IMG/VR virus record: IMGVR_UViG_3300005288_000001
Span: 32,001-96,000 of that record
Strand: one strand, 5' to 3'
DNA: 64,000 nucleotides
Origin: a virus
This document shows, piece after piece, positions 558 through 47,708 of the stretch; the stretch's first letter is position 1, and each line of letters begins with the position of its first letter. Made by a program: the position numbers and the translations under genes. The notes under the pieces were generated by a model. The model did no database searches and was not told the DNA's origin. It saw nothing but the letters and a program-made list of their open reading frames with translations.

Positions 558-634
558 TGGTGGCCCGTGGGGGATTCGAACCCCCGACATTCGGTTTTGA
601 AGACCGCCGCTCTAACCAACTGAGCTAACGGGCC
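558..634 (-). tRNA. tRNA with UCA anticodon (opal suppressor, Trp-like anticodon arm)
   Basis: Cloverleaf: acceptor GGCCCGT/ACGGGCC-A-CCA, anticodon loop CTTCAAA, T-arm GGGGG-TTCGAAT-CCCCC. No Sec-type long arm. Confidence 0.9.
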
Positions 635-641
635 ATATCTA

Positions 642-1760
642 TCAGAAGGCGTGGAAGTTAAAGCCACCCGATTCAGGTTGGGGCTTGACCACGCGAACCA
701 GGATACGGTTCTTCTCAACAGGAGTGATGTACTCGTAAACGATGCTACCACCCTTCTCGATCTTCAGCACGCGCTCATCACTCAGCTCGAAGTCCGGACA
801 CTCGAAGTACAACGGATTGTCCTCAGCGTCCTTCTTACCGTTCGGAACGCCGTAGAAGTCCATTTCAGGCTTGCTATTGGCATCCGAGACCAGAGGCGAA
901 CCACGCAGCTGACGCGGGTGGTAGAAGCTCTCGAGAACCTTCTGGCCGTTGATCGAGACTTCGACGTCGTACGCACGGGTCGTCAGGTCGAACTCGAGAC
1001 GAGCGTTCACGTTCTGCATTGCGCTCGGTGCCGATTCGCTGTAACGGTTCATTTCTTCAACGACCGCTGCGAGCATGTCGAAGTTGAAGTTCGTGAAGCA
1101 GTCGGCGATGAGCACCAGACGATCGATTTGGGTCTTGTCGTTCAGGCAGTCTTCACAGTACTCGCGAATGAACTCAGCAGTCAGGCCACGATACGTATAC
1201 TGGTAGTAGATACGACCAGGACGGTTACGCATGTGGGGGTCGATGTAACCGGAGTTCATCGTCAGCAGGAAGAGCTTCTTGCTGGAGAATACACCGTCGA
1301 GCAGGGTCAGGAGCTTTTCCTGATCATCCTTATCGTACACCTTCTCGAACTCATCGAACAGCACCACGCAGGGTTGCTGGATGGTTTGGATAAACTTGTT
1401 GAAGCTATCGCCGTGGAAAGGAGTGTTGATGATCAAGGTTGGCACATTGTGCGTCTTGGCCAATTCAATCGACAGGCTCTTGGTCAGGAGCGTCTTACCC
1501 GAACCCTTTTCACCCGACAGCAGGACGCCAGTCGAACGAGGGCGGTCCATGAAGGTCTCGATGATACGGTCGCGGCGACCATCATTGGCACCGTAGACCT
1601 TCTTCGGCAGGGTAAACGTGTCAACTTCCTCGAGGAAGAACACGCCGAACTGGTCGATCTTCACGACGTAATTCGTGTTGGCCGGCAGAGCGTCATAAAC
1701 ATCCAGCGAACGACTGTCCTTAACTTGGACCGTGTTACCGCTCTTAAAATAATGCGTCAA
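642..1760 (-). CDS. AAA+ ATPase
   Basis: Walker A GEKGSGKT, Walker B VVLFDEFEK, sensor TMN, arginine finger RPGR. Confidence 0.85.
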   Translation of the reverse strand: MTHYFKSGNTVQVKDSRSLDVYDALPANTNYVVKIDQFGVFFLEEVDTFTLPKKVYGANDGRRDRIIETFMDRPRSTGVLLSGEKGSGKTLLTKSLSIELAKTHNVPTLIINTPFHGDSFNKFIQTIQQPCVVLFDEFEKVYDKDDQEKLLTLLDGVFSSKKLFLLTMNSGYIDPHMRNRPGRIYYQYTYRGLTAEFIREYCEDCLNDKTQIDRLVLIADCFTNFNFDMLAAVVEEMNRYSESAPSAMQNVNARLEFDLTTRAYDVEVSINGQKVLESFYHPRQLRGSPLVSDANSKPEMDFYGVPNGKKDAEDNPLYFECPDFELSDERVLKIEKGGSIVYEYITPVEKNRILVRVVKPQPESGGFNFHAF

Positions 1761-3407: not shown

Positions 3408-3514
3408 CAGAATCGTTTTTGACATCCCGAGGACTCGAACCTCTGTCATACCCCCAGCGGGCCAGGCACTTGGTTTTGGTAGTGGTAGTGGTTTGTATTG
3501 CTGATACGATTCTA
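3408..3514 (-). ncRNA. Stem/CAGCAA ncRNA #1, containing a T-arm mimic
   Basis: Closing stem TAGAATCGT...ACGATTCTG, ATCAGCAA motif, internal GAGG-TTCGAGT-CCTC hairpin. Confidence 0.6.
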
Positions 3515-3627: not shown

Positions 3628-3682
3628 CAGGTTCCGCTTTTTTCATTTCAATGTGAATTTTTGTATTGCTGAATGGAACCTA
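3628..3682 (-). ncRNA. Stem/CAGCAA ncRNA #2
   Basis: Stem TAGGTTCC...GGAACCTG, ATTCAGCAA motif. Confidence 0.6.
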
Positions 3683-4199: not shown

Positions 4200-4219
4200 A
4201 CAGTTAATTATACGTTACT

Positions 4220-4309
4220 TGGCGGAAGAAGGAGGTATCGAACCCCATCCGAATTACTCCAGACTGACTGCTTAGCAGGCAGCACGTAACCCTGTTACGA
4301 TCATCTTCC
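4220..4309 (-). tRNA. tRNA-Ser(GCT)
   Basis: Loop CTGCTAA, long variable arm, G73, CCA end. Confidence 0.85.
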
Positions 4310-4314
4310 TAAAT

Positions 4315-4438
4315 TGGTGCCGATGGCCGGATTCGAACCGACGTCTCGTCCTTGAAATGGAGTGTAAAGTATGCTGGACAGAACCTTGTCAGGCTCCGGT
4401 TTGGTACATACGCGTGCTAACCATTACACCACATCGGC
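4315..4438 (-). tRNA. tRNA-like RNA (anticodon TTC) with 49-nt insert in the anticodon stem
   Basis: Acceptor, D and T arms are intact. Deleting 4362-4410 gives a 75-nt cloverleaf with CGTCC-ATTTCAA-GGACG. Confidence 0.75.
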
Positions 4439-4445
4439 ATTAAAC

Positions 4446-4521
4446 TGGCGGTTCTAGGGGGTAACGCTCCCCACTCTTCTGCAGTGACAGTGCAGTATGC
4501 ATCTATGAACATCTTAGAACC
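4446..4521 (-). tRNA. tRNA-Asp(GTC)
   Basis: CTGCA-CTGTCAC-TGCAG, T-loop AGCGTTA, GCCA end. Confidence 0.85.
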
Positions 4522-4527
4522 TAAACT

Positions 4528-4601
4528 TGGTACCCAGTGAAAGTAACGCTCTTTCGTTCTCGCCTTATCAAGACGCCGTTCTACTTTTGAACTAACCGGG
4601 C
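4528..4601 (-). tRNA. tRNA-Ile(GAT)
   Basis: Loop TTGATAA, T-loop AGCGTTA, CCA end. Confidence 0.85.
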
Positions 4602-4604
4602 AAA

Positions 4605-4675
4605 TGGTGGGGAGGCAGATCATATAACCATAGCCTCATCTTTTATCGCCCTTCTCGACCAGGGGCGACCTCCCC
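4605..4675 (-). ncRNA. CCA-ended non-cloverleaf mini-tRNA
   Basis: Acceptor helix GGGGAGG/CCTCCCC-A-CCA; internal TCGCCC/GGGCGA hairpin. Confidence 0.6.
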
Positions 4676-4684
4676 ATAAAAACT

Positions 4685-4761
4685 TGGCGGGCCAGAGTGG
4701 ACTCGAACCACTAACATTCGGTTTTGGAGACCGACGTTCTGCCAATTGGAACTACTGACCC
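4685..4761 (-). tRNA. tRNA-Trp(CCA)
   Basis: Loop CTCCAAA, canonical arms. Confidence 0.92.
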
Positions 4762-4770
4762 ATAAAACAA

Positions 4771-4826
4771 CAGGATGCTTATTTTTCAATTAAAAGTTGA
4801 ATTTTAAGATTGCTGAACGCATCCTA
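4771..4826 (-). ncRNA. Stem/CAGCAA ncRNA #3, with tRNA-Lys anticodon-loop mimic
   Basis: Stem TAGGATGC...GCATCCTG, TTCAGCAA, internal TTCAA-CTTTTAA-TTGAA hairpin. Confidence 0.65.
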
Positions 4827-4833
4827 GATACTA

Positions 4834-4912
4834 CAGAGAAGTAATAAGATTTAGGCTCTTATCGTTGCCCGCCTTTCGGCATCCAGATTAATGGTTTGCT
4901 GAATCTTCTCTA
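4834..4912 (-). ncRNA. Stem/CAGCAA ncRNA #4
   Basis: Stem TAGAGAAG...CTTCTCTG, TTCAGCAA, hairpins GCC-GAAA-GGC and ATAAGA-GCCTAAA-TCTTAT. Confidence 0.6.
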
Positions 4913-5468: not shown

Positions 5469-5616
5469 CAGAGTGTCAGGAGCGTTTCGGCCGCGATTCC
5501 CAGGTGCCTGTACTACGATTTGGCAGGTAGCCTTCCTATCTGGCCTTGGAGGGGTTTGATGCCCTCTTACTTCACCAGCATTGCGATTTTATATATTTGT
5601 TGCAGAACACACTCTA
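5469..5616 (-). ncRNA. Stem/CTGCAA ncRNA #5 (long)
   Basis: Stem TAGAGTGT...ACACTCTG, TTCTGCAA motif, about 125-nt interior. Confidence 0.6.
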
Positions 5617-6496: not shown

Positions 6497-6571
6497 TGGT
6501 ATCCTGTATGGGTTACGCTCCCATCTATGCCGGTTGAAAGCCGGGTGACCACTCTAGCAGTCGCACAGGAT
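6497..6571 (-). tRNA. tRNA-Glu(TTC), atypical T-loop
   Basis: Loop CTTTCAA, T-loop AGCGTAA. Confidence 0.8.
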
Positions 6572-7678: not shown

Positions 7679-8257
7679 TTATTTAGGCGGCAGTATGATA
7701 TGTACTTTGTCGTTATCGATACCAAGAATCTTTTCGCAGTCACGATAGTTCTTGAAACTGAAGCCTTCGTTAGCGTCACACTTGACAAAGTGATCGGACA
7801 GTTCATCGCGGAACTGTGTCACCCCATGAAACTGATCCACGTCATCTAGGATAATGAAGTTCTCAATGTTGAGCCCTTCGTTCAGTTCCAACCAACGATT
7901 GATTTCGTCACCACGTGTTCGCGTTGGAGTGGTGATGTCAGGAGTGGCATCGATGACTAGAGTGTAGTCAAGACCCAGTTCCTCCAGGTAAAGACCCATA
8001 CGAAACAGGTCTACCTGATCCCTTGAAAAGCCACCTTCAACTGCCACTGTACCAGGCAGTAGATAGTCGTACCGGTGGCTAGAGCTTAGGACAATGAGCA
8101 GGTTATTGTCCTTACAAAGACGATTAACCATGGCGACGGCAGTTTTGTCCATACCGTCGATCATGATCTGCTTAAAGGTCTTACTCTTCATCGGAGTTAC
8201 GAGAGCCGTACGACTGGAGTTAAGGACACCGTCGATGTCCAGGAATAGAATCTTCAT
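7679..8257 (-). CDS. HAD-superfamily phosphatase (RNA-repair 'Swiss Army Knife' type)
   Basis: FLDIDGVLN, IVLSSS, RGDEI, IILDD motifs. Confidence 0.8.
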   Translation of the reverse strand: MKILFLDIDGVLNSSRTALVTPMKSKTFKQIMIDGMDKTAVAMVNRLCKDNNLLIVLSSSHRYDYLLPGTVAVEGGFSRDQVDLFRMGLYLEELGLDYTLVIDATPDITTPTRTRGDEINRWLELNEGLNIENFIILDDVDQFHGVTQFRDELSDHFVKCDANEGFSFKNYRDCEKILGIDNDKVHIILPPK

Positions 8258-12589: not shown

Positions 12590-12665
12590 TGGTGAGACGT
12601 GTTGGATTCGGACCAACGATCAAGGAATTATGAGTTCCCTGCTTTAACCTCTAAGCTAACGTCCC
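12590..12665 (-). tRNA. tRNA-Ile2/Met(CAT)
   Basis: GGGAA-CTCATAA-TTCCT, CCA end; GGTATAAT just upstream. Confidence 0.88.
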
Positions 12666-12710: not shown

Positions 12711-13115
12711 TCAATCTATTTTAACATGCTTAGTGTGGCAACGGAGCATGATCTGACGGTTGTAGAACTTGTCAGGGTTTTCTAGCACCCGTCTATCCAT
12801 CTGCTCACGAGCTTCAAGATAACCAAGGCTTCCCTTGTTCTTACAGTAATGGATGATCTGACGTAGGAAGGAATCTTCACCAAGCAATTCAATGTCAGCC
12901 TTCAGGAGCTCAGATGAACCCCAGTATTCCTTCCAATCTGAATCCACCTTGAAGCGTTTCTTCTTACCCTTCACCATCTTTGTCTTGGCGAACTTGGCGA
13001 GCTTCTTACCGATGTACTCGCGCCCGTCCTTTACGTTGATAATCCTATAGACAAAGCCAATGTATTCTTCTGGAATCGATTCAACGGGCATCCCGTTGTG
13101 ATCAATCCAAGTCAT
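12711..13115 (-). CDS. GIY-YIG family endonuclease
   Basis: GFVY..I...YIGKK, YWGSS, E..E, FYN. Confidence 0.8.
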   Translation of the reverse strand: MTWIDHNGMPVESIPEEYIGFVYRIINVKDGREYIGKKLAKFAKTKMVKGKKKRFKVDSDWKEYWGSSELLKADIELLGEDSFLRQIIHYCKNKGSLGYLEAREQMDRRVLENPDKFYNRQIMLRCHTKHVKID

Positions 13116-28209: not shown

Positions 28210-28940
28210 TTCCCGATCAACCTTCCGAACGCGAGATCATGGTGGGCCTCCATCTTGGCCAGGGCGGCTTCGCCAGCCATACGCTGAAGGGTTTCGCGAT
28301 GGAACACTTCGTCCGGGAGAATGATCTTCAGGGCGTAGCGGACATCAACGTCAGTATCAGGGTGGTCCAGGATAATTTCGAATCGCTCAGCGGCCAGCGA
28401 CTCACCGAAGTGGTTAACCGCTGCGTACGTCTTCAAATCATCGTACTGTTGATTCATGTAAGTCCAGTAGGAACTACACGTTTCAATCGTTGGTTCGACC
28501 AGTTCGATTCCACGATAATTCATCAGACCAGTAAGGATGTTTGAGTGTTTCATCTCATCCTCCGCAATGTTCATCAAAATCTTGGCCGAACGTTCGTCGT
28601 ATCCGATACCACTTTTGAGGAAGTCAACGTGGTCAGTATAGCCGCCGATTTCAGTAATCTGCAGCTTCTGCATCCACTTAACGAAGCGAGCGGAGTCCTT
28701 GCAAACCGCCGACCACCACGTCTTCGTGAATTCTATTTCGTCCTTATTCACTGCCAGCCTTGGCGTGGAAGTCGTTGAGACGATCCAGGGTTTTCTGGGC
28801 CATTTCCAAGGTCTTGCTGCGATGGACACATTGGCAATCCCAGAAAACACAATGCTTGTCACTGACTGGAATGATGAAGTTGCGGGTGCCTTTTTCAAGG
28901 GCAATTGCTTCCAGATCGATCTGGGCGATAATGGTGTCAA
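28206..28940 (-). CDS. Ferritin-like di-iron protein (true start probably near 28720)
   Basis: E...EDEMKH...E..AAE...DEVFH four-helix di-iron pattern. Confidence 0.7.
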   Translation of the reverse strand: MTPLSPRSIWKQLPLKKAPATSSFQSVTSIVFSGIANVSIAARPWKWPRKPWIVSTTSTPRLAVNKDEIEFTKTWWSAVCKDSARFVKWMQKLQITEIGGYTDHVDFLKSGIGYDERSAKILMNIAEDEMKHSNILTGLMNYRGIELVEPTIETCSSYWTYMNQQYDDLKTYAAVNHFGESLAAERFEIILDHPDTDVDVRYALKIILPDEVFHRETLQRMAGEAALAKMEAHHDLAFGRLIGK

Positions 28941-28985
28941 TACCGTGTGTCATAAGTCTATGTCAATATCAAAGTCAAGATTGAG

Positions 28986-29555
28986 TCAGTCGAAACTGCT
29001 CGACGAAGAGCTACTGTCCGACGAGGAATAGCTGTCGCTGGAACTGTAGCTTGAGGAACTCGAATAGCTCGGAGCTGGCGCACTGTACGTTGGTTCGTAC
29101 GAAGGTGCCGGAGCAGGCGATGGCGAATACGTTGGCGGGTCGATCGTTCGATCCTCGGTCTTCACCTCAACGTGAGGAGCCGGCGCTGGCGTAATTGGCA
29201 TCTTCGGAACCGAGTGGGTGCTCAGAACAGATTGCATCAGGAGCGCATCAGCAACCGCGTCAGAAGCGTCGCTAGTAGTGCTACGGGTGCTATCGAAAGA
29301 AGCCTTTGGTGGGGCTGTACGGGCCTTGGCTGAGGGTTGGTAGCCGTCGGTCGGGCGGCGTGGCGGATAGCTTGGCGTCAGGACTTCACGGCGAGCTTCG
29401 CGCGATTCCCACTTCTTCACGGCCTTGGGGCCACCGTTCTTGAAGACTTCGGCACGCTTCTTTTGTTGCGCGATGTACGCATCGCCAATCGAAGGTGGAC
29501 GCAGGTCCGCTTCAGCGGGCTTCGACTTGAAAAGGTTCTTGAGCCAGTTAATCAT
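28986..29555 (-). CDS. Hypothetical protein with Pro/Ser-rich tail
   Basis: MINWLKNLF start; poly-Ser C-terminus. Confidence 0.65.
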   Translation of the reverse strand: MINWLKNLFKSKPAEADLRPPSIGDAYIAQQKKRAEVFKNGGPKAVKKWESREARREVLTPSYPPRRPTDGYQPSAKARTAPPKASFDSTRSTTSDASDAVADALLMQSVLSTHSVPKMPITPAPAPHVEVKTEDRTIDPPTYSPSPAPAPSYEPTYSAPAPSYSSSSSYSSSDSYSSSDSSSSSSSFD

Positions 29556-29702
29556 AATTCCTCAGAGATGTTTCGATTTCGTGTTCAAAGATCATGTACA
29601 TACCACGCCCTTCAGGGAACTGTACCTTCAGTTCTTCTTTGCTAAACGTGTTAGCATCGAATACTCCTACAATACAATCCCAACCAAGGTCAAGACCAGT
29701 AA

Positions 29703-30122
29703 CTACAAAGACTTTTTGTGCCATACGTTTTCTGGACTGTGCCAGACATTTTCCTTATTGGTTATATCGTGGACAAGACGCACGACCGTGGTCGGAGTCA
29801 AACCCTTCAATGCCTCTTCGATAATCTTAGCCTGAACCTCGTCATCCTCGAAGTGCACGTTGATAGTATAACCGCTACGATAGAGCATTAGCAGCGTACG
29901 AGCCTTATGTGCTCCCGAGGTTTCACGGGACTTGTGTTCGAAACGGCACGTGTTGAAGAAGATTTGGTTGTGAATACCGGCCGCATCGAGTTGACGACGG
30001 GTGGCAGTAAACTCCTCAACCGAACGACCAGTGATGATCACATCCTTCGGACCTGGATAAACACCAATCAATCCTTCTTCAAGAACGATGACGCCGTCGA
30101 TGTCAAAACTATTCATTCTCAA
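29703..30122 (-). CDS. Small capless HAD phosphatase
   Basis: FDIDGV, ITGRS, K, FEDD. Confidence 0.8.
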   Translation of the reverse strand: MRMNSFDIDGVIVLEEGLIGVYPGPKDVIITGRSVEEFTATRRQLDAAGIHNQIFFNTCRFEHKSRETSGAHKARTLLMLYRSGYTINVHFEDDEVQAKIIEEALKGLTPTTVVRLVHDITNKENVWHSPENVWHKKSL

Positions 30123-44402: not shown

Positions 44403-44834
44403 TCAGTCCGGCAGCTGTTCCAGCAGGCTGGAAATGTCGTATTGGAATCGTTCCTTCATCGCATCCAGAACGTCGTCAGGAACACCGTGTACGTTGCCCC
44501 AGTTGGTTTGGCAGACGAAGACCGTAGGTTGCTTCCCATAGGTATGGATCATGTCAACATACGGCTTCATTTCCTTGAGGGTCGTGAAGGTATTCGAGAC
44601 GATAACATGCCCGCCACGTCCCAGTGCTTCGGCCGTAGACTGCTGACACCAAGCATGGGCCTGGCGCAGCTTCTGGCGGTCAAACTTGTATTCCCGGCCA
44701 TCCATGAAATACTGGTCAGCCTCGAAATGATAGCCCACAAGACCCAGAGAAATCCACGAATTAACCAAATTCTTTGCCAAGGTAGACTTACCTGATCCAG
44801 GGATGCCACGAATAAGAGTGAGAGAAGGATTCAT
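44403..44834 (-). CDS. Polynucleotide-kinase-like P-loop protein (AAA_33)
   Basis: RGIPGSGKST, EADQYF, VSNTFT, HGVP. Confidence 0.85.
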   Translation of the reverse strand: MNPSLTLIRGIPGSGKSTLAKNLVNSWISLGLVGYHFEADQYFMDGREYKFDRQKLRQAHAWCQQSTAEALGRGGHVIVSNTFTTLKEMKPYVDMIHTYGKQPTVFVCQTNWGNVHGVPDDVLDAMKERFQYDISSLLEQLPD

Positions 44835-45430
44835 CAGTCAGTTCCCGATCCATGAGTTTTGATATCGCCGGTGAGGCAGTATCCTACAACGTCATCCATT
44901 CGACGAACCACAGCACCGTCAGAATAGACAGCAGAATCAACACCAACGTCCATTGCACGATAACGCTCCAGACCACTAACCGAACCGTGAAGGTGTCCAT
45001 ATAGGTGTACCGCACCATGATGGCAGCGATTCCATTCGGCAATCGGGAAATGGAACATAACGACCTTGACAGGCTTCTTAGGTTCATTCTCACGTGGTTC
45101 TTCCAAGGTGTATTCGATTTCGAGATAGTCGTGGATACTCACGAATTGCTTCCGGAACCGATCGTTTTGCAACATCTTCTTGTCGTGGTTACCCACAACC
45201 AGAATCTTCTTGCCGAACAGACGATAGGCAATATCAGTTGCCTTGTCCGCAGCCAGGAAGGCGAAGTCTCCAAGAATGAAAACCGTGTCGGTCGGATGAA
45301 CCTTGGTGTTCCACTCTTGGATGAACTTCTCATTCATTTCATCGATATCCGCAAACTTCCGGGTTGCCGGATTGAATTTGAGGATGTTAGCGTGACCGAA
45401 ATGCAGATCACTCGTTACCCATGTTGTCAT
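44834..45430 (-). CDS. Calcineurin-like metallophosphoesterase
   Basis: SDLHFGH, LGD, GNHD, HFP, GHLH, DVGVD. Confidence 0.9.
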   Translation of the reverse strand: MTTWVTSDLHFGHANILKFNPATRKFADIDEMNEKFIQEWNTKVHPTDTVFILGDFAFLAADKATDIAYRLFGKKILVVGNHDKKMLQNDRFRKQFVSIHDYLEIEYTLEEPRENEPKKPVKVVMFHFPIAEWNRCHHGAVHLYGHLHGSVSGLERYRAMDVGVDSAVYSDGAVVRRMDDVVGYCLTGDIKTHGSGTD

Positions 45431-45434
45431 TCTT

Positions 45435-45917
45435 TTACCAATCAAACGTGAAGCTGTGGTATCCTTCGGCCAGGATAGCTTCCTTAAAGTCATCGAGATT
45501 CGCCGGAGTGAATGGCTTCATGCGTTCCAGATTTTCCGGATCCACTTCGGTTTCGCCGTCTTCGAGTTCAAAGTAGCTGGCGATTTGTTCATCTACCAAA
45601 TCAAGCAGTTCTACGCTGTCGTACTTAGAATCCACGAAAGTGTCGTACCATTCGATGTCGCCATGCTTCTTCTCAAATTCAGGGAAGTGCATGATCCATT
45701 GATGGTTGTCGCGCAGTTCATTAGGAACTCCACGGAAGAAGTACCACCGTTCATCCAAGGAAAGTTCCTTATCAGTGTAGATGCTACGCAGTTCCTTCTT
45801 CATCGCCTTGATCGAATCGACCAAAACGCCGCAAACTTCCAGACATGCGTCCGGGCCAGTGGTATCAAGTTGTTGTTCCATAATCTTCCTTAGAGAGGTA
45901 TTGTTCAATAAAAGCAC
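45435..45917 (-). CDS. Acidic hypothetical protein
   Basis: ORF between the ligase and the phosphoesterase. Confidence 0.55.
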   Translation of the reverse strand: MLLLNNTSLRKIMEQQLDTTGPDACLEVCGVLVDSIKAMKKELRSIYTDKELSLDERWYFFRGVPNELRDNHQWIMHFPEFEKKHGDIEWYDTFVDSKYDSVELLDLVDEQIASYFELEDGETEVDPENLERMKPFTPANLDDFKEAILAEGYHSFTFDW

Positions 45918-46761
45918 GACGTTCTTGTTCTTCCATCACGTCGAACGTCTCACGGTTCGCGGAGAGGTAATCGAGGAGAGGATAGTACTCCTCATCGATC
46001 TTCTGCTTCGCGTTTCGTGCAATCAACGTTTCCATATCCCGGCCACGCATAAACAGCTTCTTCACCAGGTAATGGGGTGACTTAATTTTAGCTGAAACGC
46101 CGTCCTCGGTATAGAACACGTAGCCCTCGTGCTGGCAGGTCTTGATCTGTTCCTTGAGGGCACCGATAGTTGTATACCAAGCCATCGGACGACCATACTG
46201 GGTCCACATATGTTCCATGCCACGAGTGATGTCGTTGTAACGGACGCCGATTTCGTACATTCCCGGTGCTTCATAGATGATATGTGGGTCTTCGGGATGG
46301 CAGCACTCGAACAACATGGTGGCGTTCTTTCCGCGCAGGTATGCGTTGAGCGAATCCATATAATCCGTTCCCATCTTTTCCAGCATTTCAGTTGCCATTA
46401 GGGCAAACGACGAATCAATTGATCCGGTCGTCGAAACGAACAGCTTACCCTTGTACGAGCTGACAGCGGCCATGAAGCCATTGTACTTTCGCATCGCCAC
46501 AATTTTGGTATCGTCGGCCAGCTTCGGAGCTTCCTTCTCGATGCCATAGTTATAGACCTTCCGGAAGGGAAGGCTGACGATGTTCCAGTCCTTGTCAACC
46601 ACGGTCCCTCGACAGTCTTCCAGGAAGCGATTCCACAGACCATCGTAGAAGACCTTACGCTTGTACTTCAGCACAAACAGGTCGGGATTGCTGGTTGGTT
46701 TCTTGTCTACCAGCTTCGGGTTTGCCTCAACCCAACGAATAAAATCAAGAGGAAGTTTCAT
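45865..46761 (-). CDS. RNA ligase (Rnl1-like)
   Basis: CRG.V, PF.K.YN, motif I KYNG, FE, EGYV, KIKS. Confidence 0.85.
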   Translation of the reverse strand: MKLPLDFIRWVEANPKLVDKKPTSNPDLFVLKYKRKVFYDGLWNRFLEDCRGTVVDKDWNIVSLPFRKVYNYGIEKEAPKLADDTKIVAMRKYNGFMAAVSSYKGKLFVSTTGSIDSSFALMATEMLEKMGTDYMDSLNAYLRGKNATMLFECCHPEDPHIIYEAPGMYEIGVRYNDITRGMEHMWTQYGRPMAWYTTIGALKEQIKTCQHEGYVFYTEDGVSAKIKSPHYLVKKLFMRGRDMETLIARNAKQKIDEEYYPLLDYLSANRETFDVMEEQERRAFIEQYLSKEDYGTTT

Positions 46762-46763
46762 AA

Positions 46764-47708
46764 TTAAGCCATTGCAGGTTGACCGACGTAAGGAGTGACC
46801 ACGCCAGATTTCACATCTTCCCAAAACTGATTGACATAATTGGGGTCATAAAGTTCCACGACAGCATCGTAGTGGTCCCAGGCAAACTCGCGGAACCATC
46901 CGGAAGTAATGCTGGTGCAAACCTTTTCGAGCGCCATCAGGAAACTCTCCAACGGAGTCTTCATCCCAGGGAATGGTATTTGTGAACGTTCAAGAGCCAG
47001 CACCATTGACTCCTCAAGAACGCCATGCAGGCGAATCTGTTGGGGAGCTGCATAGAACAGTTCCCTCGAACAGAAGACGTCTGCCTCATCTTCCTTGTAG
47101 ACTTCATACGCAGGTTGGTATCCTCGCATCACACTCCGATGAATCGAGTCGTGGTCATACTTGTAGTCCACGCCATCACCGTTGAAGAACCGCGACTTAC
47201 TAACATTGAGCTTTGGGTGCCCATAGTTGTAAGTCGCAATTTCTCGCCGGCGATAGAAATCCATATGGATTGGATCAATCTCAGCGCCAAGATTTCTCAT
47301 CATCTTGATGTCCGCCATTGTCTTGTGAAAGTGCGGCGAGTTCTTCAGATACCGATGACTCATCTTCAGCATGTACAGGAAGTTGAAGCTCGGCACAAAC
47401 ATCTGGGAAGACCTGATGTCATAGCCTTGTGTATCATCATCTGCCATTGCCGTCTCGTACAGGTCTTCTGCAGAACTGTCAGGCCAAACGATCTCAGCCT
47501 CGAAGATTTGGCTATTTTGGTACTTCGCTACCAGCTTCTTCCCTTGGCTGATTGGAATCAAACTACGAAGACCATGCTTCGATTTGAAATACTCAACCAG
47601 ATCATCGTAATATCCTACCAGGTCATAGTCCTGGCCATAGCTACGATGATCAATTGGGTGGTGAAAACGTGCAGCATGGCTACCAACCAAAAGCAAGGGA
47701 TGTTTCAT
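46764..47708 (-). CDS. Pol-beta-fold nucleotidyltransferase-like protein
   Basis: VGS.A...DYD; LKMSH; YDHD.IH; ALER; SGWFR. Confidence 0.65.
   Translation of the reverse strand: MKHPLLLVGSHAARFHHPIDHRSYGQDYDLVGYYDDLVEYFKSKHGLRSLIPISQGKKLVAKYQNSQIFEAEIVWPDSSAEDLYETAMADDDTQGYDIRSSQMFVPSFNFLYMLKMSHRYLKNSPHFHKTMADIKMMRNLGAEIDPIHMDFYRRREIATYNYGHPKLNVSKSRFFNGDGVDYKYDHDSIHRSVMRGYQPAYEVYKEDEADVFCSRELFYAAPQQIRLHGVLEESMVLALERSQIPFPGMKTPLESFLMALEKVCTSITSGWFREFAWDHYDAVVELYDPNYVNQFWEDVKSGVVTPYVGQPAMA

What the first reader, a model, noticed from the sequence alone, without database searches (positions are those of the whole stretch)
4315..4438. tRNA with a 49-nt structured insert in the 5' strand of the anticodon stem
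Seen: removing 4362-4410 restores a 75-nt cloverleaf with anticodon arm CGTCC-ATTTCAA-GGACG (anticodon TTC). The insert folds (GTATG/CATAC enclosing GGAGCCT-GACA-AGGTTCT) and lies at position 28/29 or 29/30. It is far too short for a group I intron, and bacteria lack the archaeal splicing endonuclease. The phage encodes an RNA ligase, kinase and phosphoesterase. Inference: either a non-canonical intron removed by cleavage and phage ligation, or an unspliced five-arm tRNA mimic.
Basis: partly seen in the sequence, partly recalled or inferred. Interest (0 to 1): 0.7.

Follow-up and report, generated by a model that had tools for sequence, protein, structure and literature searches.

The report
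tRNA carrying a Ro60-type docking arm
A phage tRNA-Glu gene is split in its anticodon stem by a conserved 49-base fold that matches, in swapped order, an RNA "handle" found beside the phage's Ro60-like protein gene. It is therefore more likely a tRNA-shaped partner RNA of that protein than a tRNA with a new kind of intron.

Summary
On the minus strand, 4438..4315 is a 124-nt CCA-ended tRNA (Rfam 47 bits). Removing 4410..4362 leaves a 75-nt tRNA-Glu(UUC).

Five related phage contigs carry the same gene, interrupted at the same place (28/29 or 29/30) by a 41-53-nt insert. All helices covary, including the insert hairpin and the anticodon-stem pairs on both sides of it. The anticodon drifts: UUC, GUC, GUA, and one 9-nt loop.

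I found no bulge-helix-bulge motif, no splicing endonuclease or RtcB gene, and no Rfam intron or ribozyme family.

The insert contains S'6-CUG-loop-RAG-S6-N-NCWGCAW. This is a circular permutation, with the same spacing, of a cassette (UAG-S6-N-NCWGCAW-cargo-S'6-CUG). The genome has six such cassettes: five in the tRNA array and one just upstream of a DUF2828/DUF7788 gene. The leader copy recurs in four relatives, one of them distant. The protein's predicted fold matches Ro60 over its full length.

Best reading (0.5): a tRNA-shaped Y-RNA-like partner of a divergent phage Ro60. An excised intron remains possible (0.25). Binding and RNA size are untested.

Earlier notes of this scan describe similar CAGCA modules on other phage DNA.

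The parts
4315..4438 (-). Whole 124-nt tRNA-shaped RNA gene, with complete acceptor, D, anticodon and T arms, encoded CCA and one extra arm.
   Evidence: Rfam RF00005 47 bits, model 1-71. My own model R1 scores it 122 bits, against 43 bits or less for ordinary tRNAs.
4411..4438 (-). tRNA nt 1-28: acceptor 5' strand, D arm, G26, and C27-G28 of the anticodon stem.
   Evidence: Alignments A2 and A5. Pairs 27-43 and 28-42 covary across the insert, with three pair types at 28-42.
4362..4410 (-). 49-nt insert (the extra arm) after nt 28. It consists of a 5' linker UAUGUACCAAAC, the handle helix, the CCAGCAU motif and a 9-nt AU-rich tail.
   Evidence: It is single copy in the 172.5-kb genome by model R2.
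4379..4398 (-). Handle helix CGGAGC-CUG-AC-AAG-GUUCUG (S'6-CUG-loop-RAG-S6).
   Evidence: 4 of 7 hairpin pairs show compensatory changes among six homologues. The parts and spacing are the same as in the free cassettes.
4371..4377 (-). Conserved single-stranded motif CCAGCAU (family consensus NCWGCAW), one nt 3' of the helix.
   Evidence: C-W-G-C-A is invariant in all six homologues. CAGCAUAC is identical to the motif of the cassette in front of the Ro60-like gene.
4315..4361 (-). tRNA nt 29-76: remainder of the anticodon arm (anticodon UUC at 4354-4356), 4-nt variable loop, T arm, acceptor 3' strand, A73 and CCA.
5469..5616 (-). Free-standing handle cassette UAG-AGUGUG-U-UCUGCAA ... GACACU-CUG with a 148-nt cargo-bearing body.
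4834..4912 (-). Free-standing handle cassette UAG-AGAAGA-U-UCAGCAA ... ACUUCU-CUG.
4771..4826 (-). Free-standing handle cassette UAG-GAUGCG-U-UCAGCAA ... AGCAUC-CUG.
3628..3682 (-). Free-standing handle cassette UAG-GUUCCA-U-UCAGCAA ... CGGAAC-CUG.
3408..3514 (-). Free-standing handle cassette UAG-AAUCGU-A-UCAGCAA ... ACGAUU-CUG, whose cargo includes a T-arm look-alike.

Best explanation
The 124-nt RNA is most likely not a precursor that must be spliced. I read it as a tRNA-shaped non-coding RNA that displays, from the 5' strand of its anticodon stem, the docking 'handle' of a phage Ro60-like protein. That protein is the 463-aa DUF2828/DUF7788 product encoded 6.4 kb downstream on the same strand, just outside the window at genome 28564-29952.

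Shown: the insert has the same parts, in the same spacing, as six cassettes of this genome, but circularly permuted. In the cassettes the RNA ends lie at the UAG/CUG end of the helix and a cargo sits between the CAGCAA motif and the returning strand. In the tRNA the UAG/CUG end is closed by a 2-4-nt loop and the tRNA body takes the place of the cargo. One cassette lies 19 nt upstream of the start codon of the Ro60-like gene, here and in four other phages. The predicted fold of the protein matches Ro60 over its whole length.

Inferred, by analogy with Rsr/YrlA and with phiLo Ro60/Yrl1-2: the protein binds the handle. The tRNA-like body then serves as the second module, acting as a tether or decoy for tRNA-binding enzymes such as nucleases, RNase P, modification enzymes or anticodon nucleases. 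The leader copy would let the protein regulate its own mRNA.
For: (1) Six homologous genes in syntenic tRNA arrays keep the insert at the same site, with compensatory changes in every helix.
(2) The insert is about as conserved as the tRNA part within each subtype: 81% against 81% for window versus L128, and 77% against 71% for L020 versus L126.
(3) The anticodon changes among orthologues (UUC, UUC, GUA, GUC, GUC, and a 9-nt loop) while the body and insert persist. GUA is combined with G73 and a 4-nt variable loop, which does not fit bacterial tRNA-Tyr (the identity rules are from my own knowledge).
(4) An uninterrupted tRNA-Glu(UUC)-like gene exists at 6571..6497.
(5) Cassette and insert share RAG-S6-N-NCWGCAW and S'6-CUG with identical spacing. 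S and S' covary between copies.
(6) The genome has 6 cassettes, all on the minus strand in the array or in the leader, against 0.5 expected. It has 1 permuted copy against 0.13 expected.
(7) A leader cassette lies directly upstream of the DUF2828/DUF7788 gene in G000, L020, L021 and L128, and in a distant phage L140 whose protein is 58% identical and whose neighbouring genes differ.
(8) The AlphaFold2 model has pLDDT 76 and pTM 0.73. The top 12 Foldseek PDB hits are all Ro60/TROVE (phage phiLo 9l5y at E 8.6e-8, Xenopus 1yvr, Deinococcus 2nvo, human 9nen), each aligned over about 500 columns. The next hits are vWA domains only. The MIDAS motif DVSGSM is invariant.
(9) Published precedent: Y RNAs lie next to Ro60 genes and mimic tRNA (PMC4201824), and phage phiLo Ro60 binds two RNAs encoded just upstream of its gene (PMC12135203).
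(10) No splicing signal or enzyme was found.
Against: Binding of the protein to the handle is inferred from gene neighbourhood and analogy only. The handle lacks the GNCGAA/CGAA motif of known Y RNAs, and Rfam's Y RNA and YrlA models do not match. The Pfam TROVE model does not detect the protein. The Ro60 likeness rests on a medium-confidence model with TM about 0.55.

The tRNA part is a complete, canonical tRNA with encoded CCA, a 7-nt anticodon loop with U33 in five of six members, and Glu-type features (U11-A24, U13-G22, 4-nt variable loop), which fits a working decoder. Nearest-neighbour energies put the five-arm fold with an intact split anticodon stem 5-11 kcal/mol above the minimum free energy. 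The covarying pairs 27-43 and 28-42 are therefore easier to explain in a spliced molecule.

The tRNA gene is 6.4 kb from the protein gene, not within the 4 kb used for YrlA.
Confidence: 0.5

Rival explanations
1. It is a true intervening sequence. The insert is cut out at 28/29 by an unidentified host or phage endonuclease. The two exon ends remain aligned on the 3' strand of the anticodon stem as a nicked duplex, and a phage RNA ligase seals them to give a decoding tRNA-Glu. The handle could even be what recruits the machinery.
For: Removal restores a perfect tRNA in all six homologues. Anticodon-stem pairs on both sides of the insert covary. The split stem is predicted to be unstable before removal. 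Every insert begins with UA. The Asp-anticodon members have G73 and the Glu members have U13-G22 with A46 (identity rules from my own knowledge). The phage encodes an Rnl1-like and an Rnl2-like ligase, an AAA_33 kinase, a metallophosphoesterase and a HAD phosphatase. Short unexplained inserts have been published for Lak megaphage tRNAs (PMC6784885).
Against: At best 2 of the 4 central bulge-helix-bulge pairs can form. The genome has no tRNA-splicing endonuclease, RtcB or RNase III gene. No Rfam intron or ribozyme family matches. The 3' tail varies from 5 to 11 nt. The insert is as conserved as the tRNA part. The RNA-repair genes are standard T4-type equipment and are not specific to this gene. 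The permuted-handle identity gives the insert a role of its own.
Confidence: 0.25
2. The handle, both in the free cassettes and in the tRNA insert, is a processing or stability signal for the long tRNA-array transcript, or the site of some factor other than the Ro60-like protein. The interrupted tRNA would then be cleaved there into tRNA halves or a nicked tRNA without being rejoined.
For: The cassettes start 1-5 nt after the CCA ends of tRNAs and tile the array. The linkers on both sides of the insert hairpin are AU-rich and single-stranded. The link between the handle and the Ro60-like gene is positional only.
Against: A plain processing site does not explain why a copy sits in the leader of the same protein gene in five phages, including one with different neighbouring genes. 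It also does not explain the conserved non-helical CWGCAW motif. The cassettes carry structured cargos of their own.
Confidence: 0.15
3. It is a decaying tRNA gene hit by a chance insertion, or a mobile mini-element.
For: An uninterrupted tRNA-Glu(UUC)-like gene exists in the same array. One relative has a 9-nt anticodon loop.
Against: The gene is kept in phages whose neighbouring AAA protein is only 51-56% identical. Thirteen pairs show compensatory double changes. Its tRNA part is as conserved as ordinary array tRNAs. The module occurs once per genome, with no dispersed copies in 354 kb of related DNA and no BLAST repeats.
Confidence: 0.05

Closest known systems
YrlA, the tRNA-like Y RNA of bacteria and mycobacteriophages (Rfam RF02553; Chen et al. 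2014, PMC4201824; Wang et al. 2018, 10.1101/312249)
   Same: Both are RNAs of 80-130 nt that combine a protein-docking stem with a tRNA-like module, are encoded on the same strand near a Ro60-type gene, and occur in phages. M. smegmatis YrlA is even cut by RNase P and receives CCA.
   Different: In YrlA the RNA ends form the Ro60-binding stem and the acceptor-like stem is closed. Here the ends are a normal acceptor stem with CCA, and the docking helix is a closed hairpin inserted after nt 28. A complete anticodon arm is kept. The GNCGAA motif is absent and replaced by CUG/RAG plus CWGCAW. There is no Rfam match. The partner protein belongs to DUF2828/DUF7788, not to Pfam TROVE.
Thermus phage phiLo Ro60 with Yrl1 and Yrl2 (PMC12135203; PDB 9L5Y, 9KOP)
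   Same: It is the best structural match of the partner protein. It is a phage Ro60 with partner RNAs encoded directly upstream of its gene, as the leader cassette is here.
   Different: The phiLo RNAs are classical stem-bulge-stem Y RNAs with a CGAA motif and no tRNA body. Sequence identity of the proteins is about 17%.
'Enigmatic' introns of Lak megaphage tRNAs (Devoto et al. 2019, PMC6784885, Table S6)
   Same: They are short, non-self-splicing-sized inserts in otherwise normal phage tRNA genes, conserved between genomes, with an unknown mechanism.
   Different: The Lak inserts are 79-114 nt, sit in the anticodon loop near 37/38 and are themselves tRNA-shaped with a GGUUCGAAUCC T arm. This insert is 41-53 nt, sits in the anticodon stem and is a hairpin plus the CWGCAW motif.
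Archaeal and algal non-canonical tRNA introns (positions such as 29/30 and 30/31; PMC4090602)
   Same: The place in the anticodon stem and the size range are the same.
   Different: Those introns require a bulge-helix-bulge motif and a splicing endonuclease. Neither is present here.
Phage T4 stable RNAs rnaC and rnaD (species 1 and 2) in the tRNA cluster
   Same: They are stable RNAs of 119-139 nt of unknown function, encoded among the tRNAs of a T4-type phage. rnaC has a T-arm look-alike.
   Different: They have no tRNA cloverleaf with an insert, no handle motif and no sequence similarity.

Membership tests
Protein-spliced tRNA intron (archaeal/eukaryal type) | Bulge-helix-bulge motif (two 3-nt bulges around a 4-bp helix) carrying both splice sites. 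| tested here: not met
   A script tried all registers for six homologues. At best 2 of the 4 central pairs form.
Protein-spliced tRNA intron (archaeal/eukaryal type) | A tRNA-splicing endonuclease is available. | tested here: not met
   PF01974 is absent from the complete 172.5-kb genome at E<=1. The host is unknown, so its enzymes could not be checked.
Group I (or other self-splicing) intron, small self-cleaving ribozymes | Match to the catalytic core (Rfam models) and adequate size. | tested here: not met
   The insert is 41-53 nt. cmscan of 4200-4700 at E<=1 returns only tRNA-clan hits. Gathering-score scans of the window and of relatives give only tRNA.
Y RNA / YrlA (RF02553) | tRNA-like module with D and T arms. 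| tested here: met
   A full tRNA cloverleaf, RF00005 47 bits.
Y RNA / YrlA (RF02553) | Encoded close to (within 4 kb of) a Ro60 orthologue and on the same strand. | tested here: inconclusive
   The strand is the same, but the gene lies 6.4 kb from the Ro60-like gene. A sister copy of the handle lies 19 nt upstream of that gene's start codon.
Y RNA / YrlA (RF02553) | Ro60-binding stem formed by the 5' and 3' ends, with a GNCGAAN0-1G (CGAA) motif. | tested here: not met
   The ends form an acceptor stem. The handle has CUG/RAG and CWGCAW instead. There is no Rfam Y RNA or YrlA hit.
Y RNA / YrlA (RF02553) | Physical binding to the Ro60 protein. | not testable with these tools
   This needs EMSA or RIP. 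No protein-RNA docking tool was available.
Ro60 / TROVE proteins (the partner gene) | Ring of HEAT-like helices followed by a vWA domain with a MIDAS motif. | tested here: met
   The top 12 Foldseek hits are all Ro60 over about 500 columns, E 8.6e-8 to 1e-4. Helices span residues 3-250, followed by an alpha/beta domain. DxSxS (DVSGSM) is invariant in 27 sequences.
Ro60 / TROVE proteins (the partner gene) | Match to Pfam TROVE (PF05731). | tested here: not met
   No hit at E<=1 in the genome. The protein matches only DUF2828 and DUF7788, and phmmer against PDB finds nothing.
Handle cassette family of this phage group | 9-bp helix ending in RAG/CUG, then one nt, then NCWGCAW on the strand that leaves the helix 3' of S6. 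| tested here: met
   All six tRNA inserts and 24 cassettes in G000, L019, L020 and L128 fit one template with the same spacing. Counts exceed random genomes.
Lak-type 'enigmatic' tRNA introns | Insert in the anticodon loop that is itself tRNA-shaped. | tested here: not met
   Table S6 of PMC6784885, compared with the anatomy found here.

The most novel reading that the evidence does not exclude
The handle makes this a protein-guided splicing substrate. The Ro60-like ring would dock on the insert of a genuine pre-tRNA-Glu and hand it to nucleases and to the phage heal-and-seal enzymes (kinase, phosphoesterase, Rnl1/Rnl2), which would excise the arm and reseal the nicked anticodon stem. That would be a ribozyme-free, endonuclease-family-free tRNA splicing route in a bacterial virus, possibly used to switch the tRNA on only in infected cells.
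Probability: 0.12. Interest if true: 0.92.

Novelty: new variant of a known kind. Interest (0 to 1): 0.72.

Why it matters
If the reading is right, a Ro60-type particle exists in a large, widespread group of T4-like phages. The protein family is catalogued only as domains of unknown function. It would use a new RNA handle and a layout not published before: a complete, CCA-ended tRNA with the docking arm plugged into its anticodon stem.

This would extend the Y RNA/tRNA-mimic theme from bacteria to phage tRNA arrays. It would give a concrete candidate function for the many odd RNAs in those arrays. It would also caution against calling every short insert in a phage tRNA an intron.

The claim is directly testable with one purified protein and a few transcripts. 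If the RNA turns out to be spliced after all, it would be the first protein-dependent tRNA splicing known for bacteria or their viruses.

Tried and rejected
- Exact-pattern scans of IMG/VR for the insert core, the 5' half and the 3' half found nothing.
- A degenerate T-arm/acceptor pattern in metagenomes returned mainly bacterial tRNA-Leu genes and two att-like fragments.
- The HAD protein gave no related loci.
- AAA-protein relatives in IMG/VR at 45-55% identity lack the gene.
- An exact look-up and a homologue search with the 59-aa neighbouring ORF found only the nearest relative.
- BLAST against INPHARED phages found no relative of the region or a close cultured relative, so the host remains unknown.
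- ARAGORN's intron mode proposes tRNA-Trp(CCA) with a 26-nt loop intron and a 27-nt variable arm. I rejected this because the CCA and the outer stem are absent from the L020-type homologues.
- A deletion scan with ARAGORN was too permissive to serve as a control: 173 deletions gave 'tRNA' calls.
- T4 rnaC and rnaD are not similar.
- Rejected after checking: a bulge-helix-bulge motif, a RegB GGAG site (not conserved), an RNase III gene, a pseudoknot through the hairpin loop (the loop varies freely between near-identical relatives), pairing of the insert with the anticodon (by inspection), and riboswitch or type III antitoxin families (no Rfam hit).
- A 9-bp pairing of the 3' linker with tRNA nt 4-12 in L020 is not conserved.
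- The Pfam TROVE search was negative and nearly led me to dismiss the Ro60 idea. The fold comparison reversed that.
- A literature search for DUF2828 gave only unrelated plant and animal papers.
- No paper describing inserts at 28/29 in phage tRNAs turned up.

Full report
**What is there.**
The window is part of a complete 172,501-bp phage genome with direct terminal repeats. It has T4-type genes: an RNase H with the T4 C-terminal domain, SegE-like and Rnl1/Rnl2-like proteins, and ribonucleotide reductase. A tRNA array runs on the minus strand from about 6750 to 560.

The element in question is on the minus strand, 4438..4315, and is 124 nt including CCA. Rfam's tRNA model matches it end to end at 47 bits, with a 60-nt local insertion in the anticodon arm. 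Ordinary ARAGORN skips it. Removing 4410..4362 (49 nt) gives a 75-nt tRNA-Glu(UUC) with a perfect 5-bp anticodon stem. A U on each side makes the junction 28/29 or 29/30.

**Relatives.**
Exact-word scans failed. The AAA ATPase at 642-1760 has homologues of 92, 86, 56 and 51% identity whose contigs are syntenic (HAD phosphatase, tRNA array, AAA) and carry the same interrupted gene. These are L019:5059-5183, L020:7645-7761, L021:200-314, L126:10-130 and L128:5646-5773.

A covariance model scores the six genes at 87-136 bits, against 43 bits or less for all other tRNAs. In the structural alignment 99.4% of cells are paired and 13 of 28 pairs show changes on both sides. None of 500 shuffles or slid registers comes close. 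The alignment was fitted to the model, which favours it somewhat, but MAFFT gives the same columns.

The insert hairpin has 4 of 7 compensatory pairs. The anticodon-stem pairs 27-43, 28-42, 29-41 and 31-39 all covary across the insert. The inserts are 41-53 nt and always begin with UA. They share the layout UA, AAAYY, a 7-8-bp hairpin, NCWGCAW and an AU-rich tail. The outer GUAUG/CAUAC stem is not conserved. More distant relatives lack the gene.

**Tests of the intron idea.**
No bulge-helix-bulge motif can be drawn. The genome has no splicing endonuclease, RtcB or RNase III gene. No Rfam intron or ribozyme matches.

The phage does have heal-and-seal enzymes: an AAA_33 kinase, a metallophosphoesterase and an Rnl1-like ligase side by side at 44499-46824, an Rnl2-like ligase just beyond the window, and a HAD phosphatase at 7679-8257. 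These are usual for T4-type phages.

Two results favour splicing. The exons always rebuild a canonical tRNA. The five-arm fold with the split stem intact is 5-11 kcal/mol above the minimum free energy.

Four results speak against a throw-away intron:
- The insert is as conserved as the exons within each subtype.
- The anticodon drifts among orthologues (UUC, GUA, GUC, and a 9-nt loop). GUA is joined to G73 and a short variable loop.
- The array already holds an uninterrupted tRNA-Glu(UUC)-like gene at 6571..6497.
- The module is single copy, so it is not a mobile repeat.

**The handle.**
Notes from this scan on other genomes mentioned CAGCA(A) modules in phage tRNA arms linked to a Ro60-like protein. 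I tested that lead here.

The array holds five cassettes of the form UAG-S6-N-NCWGCAW-cargo-S'6-CUG. The 9-nt strands pair at 8-9 of 9 positions, and S and S' differ between copies in a compensatory way. The tRNA insert reads S'6-CUG-(2-4 nt)-RAG-S6-N-NCWGCAW. These are the same parts with the same 6+1 spacing, circularly permuted, and an A-rich stretch precedes S' in both layouts.

In the whole genome the cassette pattern occurs 6 times, all on the minus strand, against 0.5 expected. The permuted pattern occurs once against 0.13 expected.

The sixth cassette lies at genome 30037-29972 and ends 19 nt before the start codon of a 463-aa DUF2828/DUF7788 gene (28564-29952, minus strand). Its motif UCAGCAUAC is the same as the insert's CCAGCAUAC. 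The same leader cassette precedes the orthologous gene in L020, L021 and L128. It also precedes it in L140, a distant phage with a 58% identical protein and different neighbouring genes.

**The protein.**
Pfam TROVE does not detect it, and phmmer against PDB finds nothing. An AlphaFold2 model from 27 sequences has pLDDT 76 and pTM 0.73. It shows about 250 residues of helices followed by an alpha/beta domain, with an invariant DVSGSM MIDAS motif.

Foldseek against PDB returns Ro60 or TROVE structures as the top 12 hits: phage phiLo, Xenopus, Deinococcus and human. E-values run from 8.6e-8 to 1e-4 over about 500 aligned columns, and only isolated vWA domains follow. I take it to be a divergent Ro60-like protein.

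**Reading.**
Ro60 proteins bind Y RNAs encoded next to their genes. Bacterial and phage YrlA RNAs pair a Ro60-binding stem with a tRNA mimic (PMC4201824). Phage phiLo Ro60 binds two RNAs encoded just upstream of its gene and engages the host PNPase (PMC12135203).

The simplest account of the present data is that the insert is the docking handle of the phage Ro60-like protein, and that the 124-nt RNA is a tRNA-shaped partner RNA in a layout that mirrors YrlA. Binding, RNA size in vivo and function are not shown.

I give this reading 0.5. I give an excised intron 0.25, a processing or other-factor signal 0.15, and decay 0.05.

It is not a member of the YrlA family by Rfam or by motif, but it appears to work like one.

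Noticed in passing
window 6497-6571 (-) and 4446-4521 (-): These are an uninterrupted tRNA-Glu(UUC)-like gene and a tRNA-Asp(GUC)-like gene. Both fold as clean cloverleaves but have the T loop AGCGU(A/U)A instead of UUCGAAU. ARAGORN and Rfam both miss them.
   Followed up: partly
window 44499-47708 (-): An RNA heal-and-seal cluster: AAA_33 kinase (about 44499-44822), metallophosphoesterase (44834-45493), DUF7020 (45435-45917), Rnl1-like ligase (45865-46824) and DUF7275/DUF7277 (46764-47708). An Rnl2-like ligase lies just past the window end (L011:1369-2430).
   Followed up: partly
genome 28564-30037 (-), about 2-3.4 kb before window position 1 (locus L139): A DUF2828/DUF7788 protein with a predicted Ro60 fold, preceded by a handle cassette 19 nt from its start codon. 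The family is very large and is catalogued only as domains of unknown function.
   Followed up: yes
window 642-1760 (-); L134, L135: In distant relatives the AAA ATPase beside the array sits directly next to an Rnl1-like or PF09414 ligase, a metallophosphoesterase and an AAA_33 kinase. It may therefore belong to the RNA-repair set.
   Followed up: no
L126:137-251, L126:1390-1504, L126:1883-2010, L128:7203-7301: Four further over-long tRNA-like genes in related phages. They have other inserted hairpins in or near the anticodon arm and do not match the handle model.
   Followed up: partly
window 558-634 (-) and the same place in relatives: The suppressor-type tRNA next to the AAA gene reads UGA (anticodon tca) in the window, L020, L021 and L127. 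It reads UAG (anticodon cta) in L019, L023, L126 and L128, although L019 is 92% identical in the neighbouring protein.
   Followed up: no
window 12711-13115 (-): A SegE-like GIY-YIG homing endonuclease gene lies right beside an isolated tRNA-Met (12590-12665). This recalls segB inside the T4 tRNA cluster.
   Followed up: no
L020:7645-7761: In this homologue the 3' linker AACUGCAUC can pair over 9 bp with tRNA nt 4-12, which would lock the acceptor and D region in the minimum-free-energy fold. The pairing is weaker or absent in the other five homologues.
   Followed up: partly
insert types against neighbouring protein identity: Insert subtype does not follow the AAA protein tree. The window (AAA 86% identical to L020) shares its insert type with L128 (AAA 51%), while L020 shares its type with L126 (56%). 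This suggests exchange of array segments between phages.
   Followed up: partly
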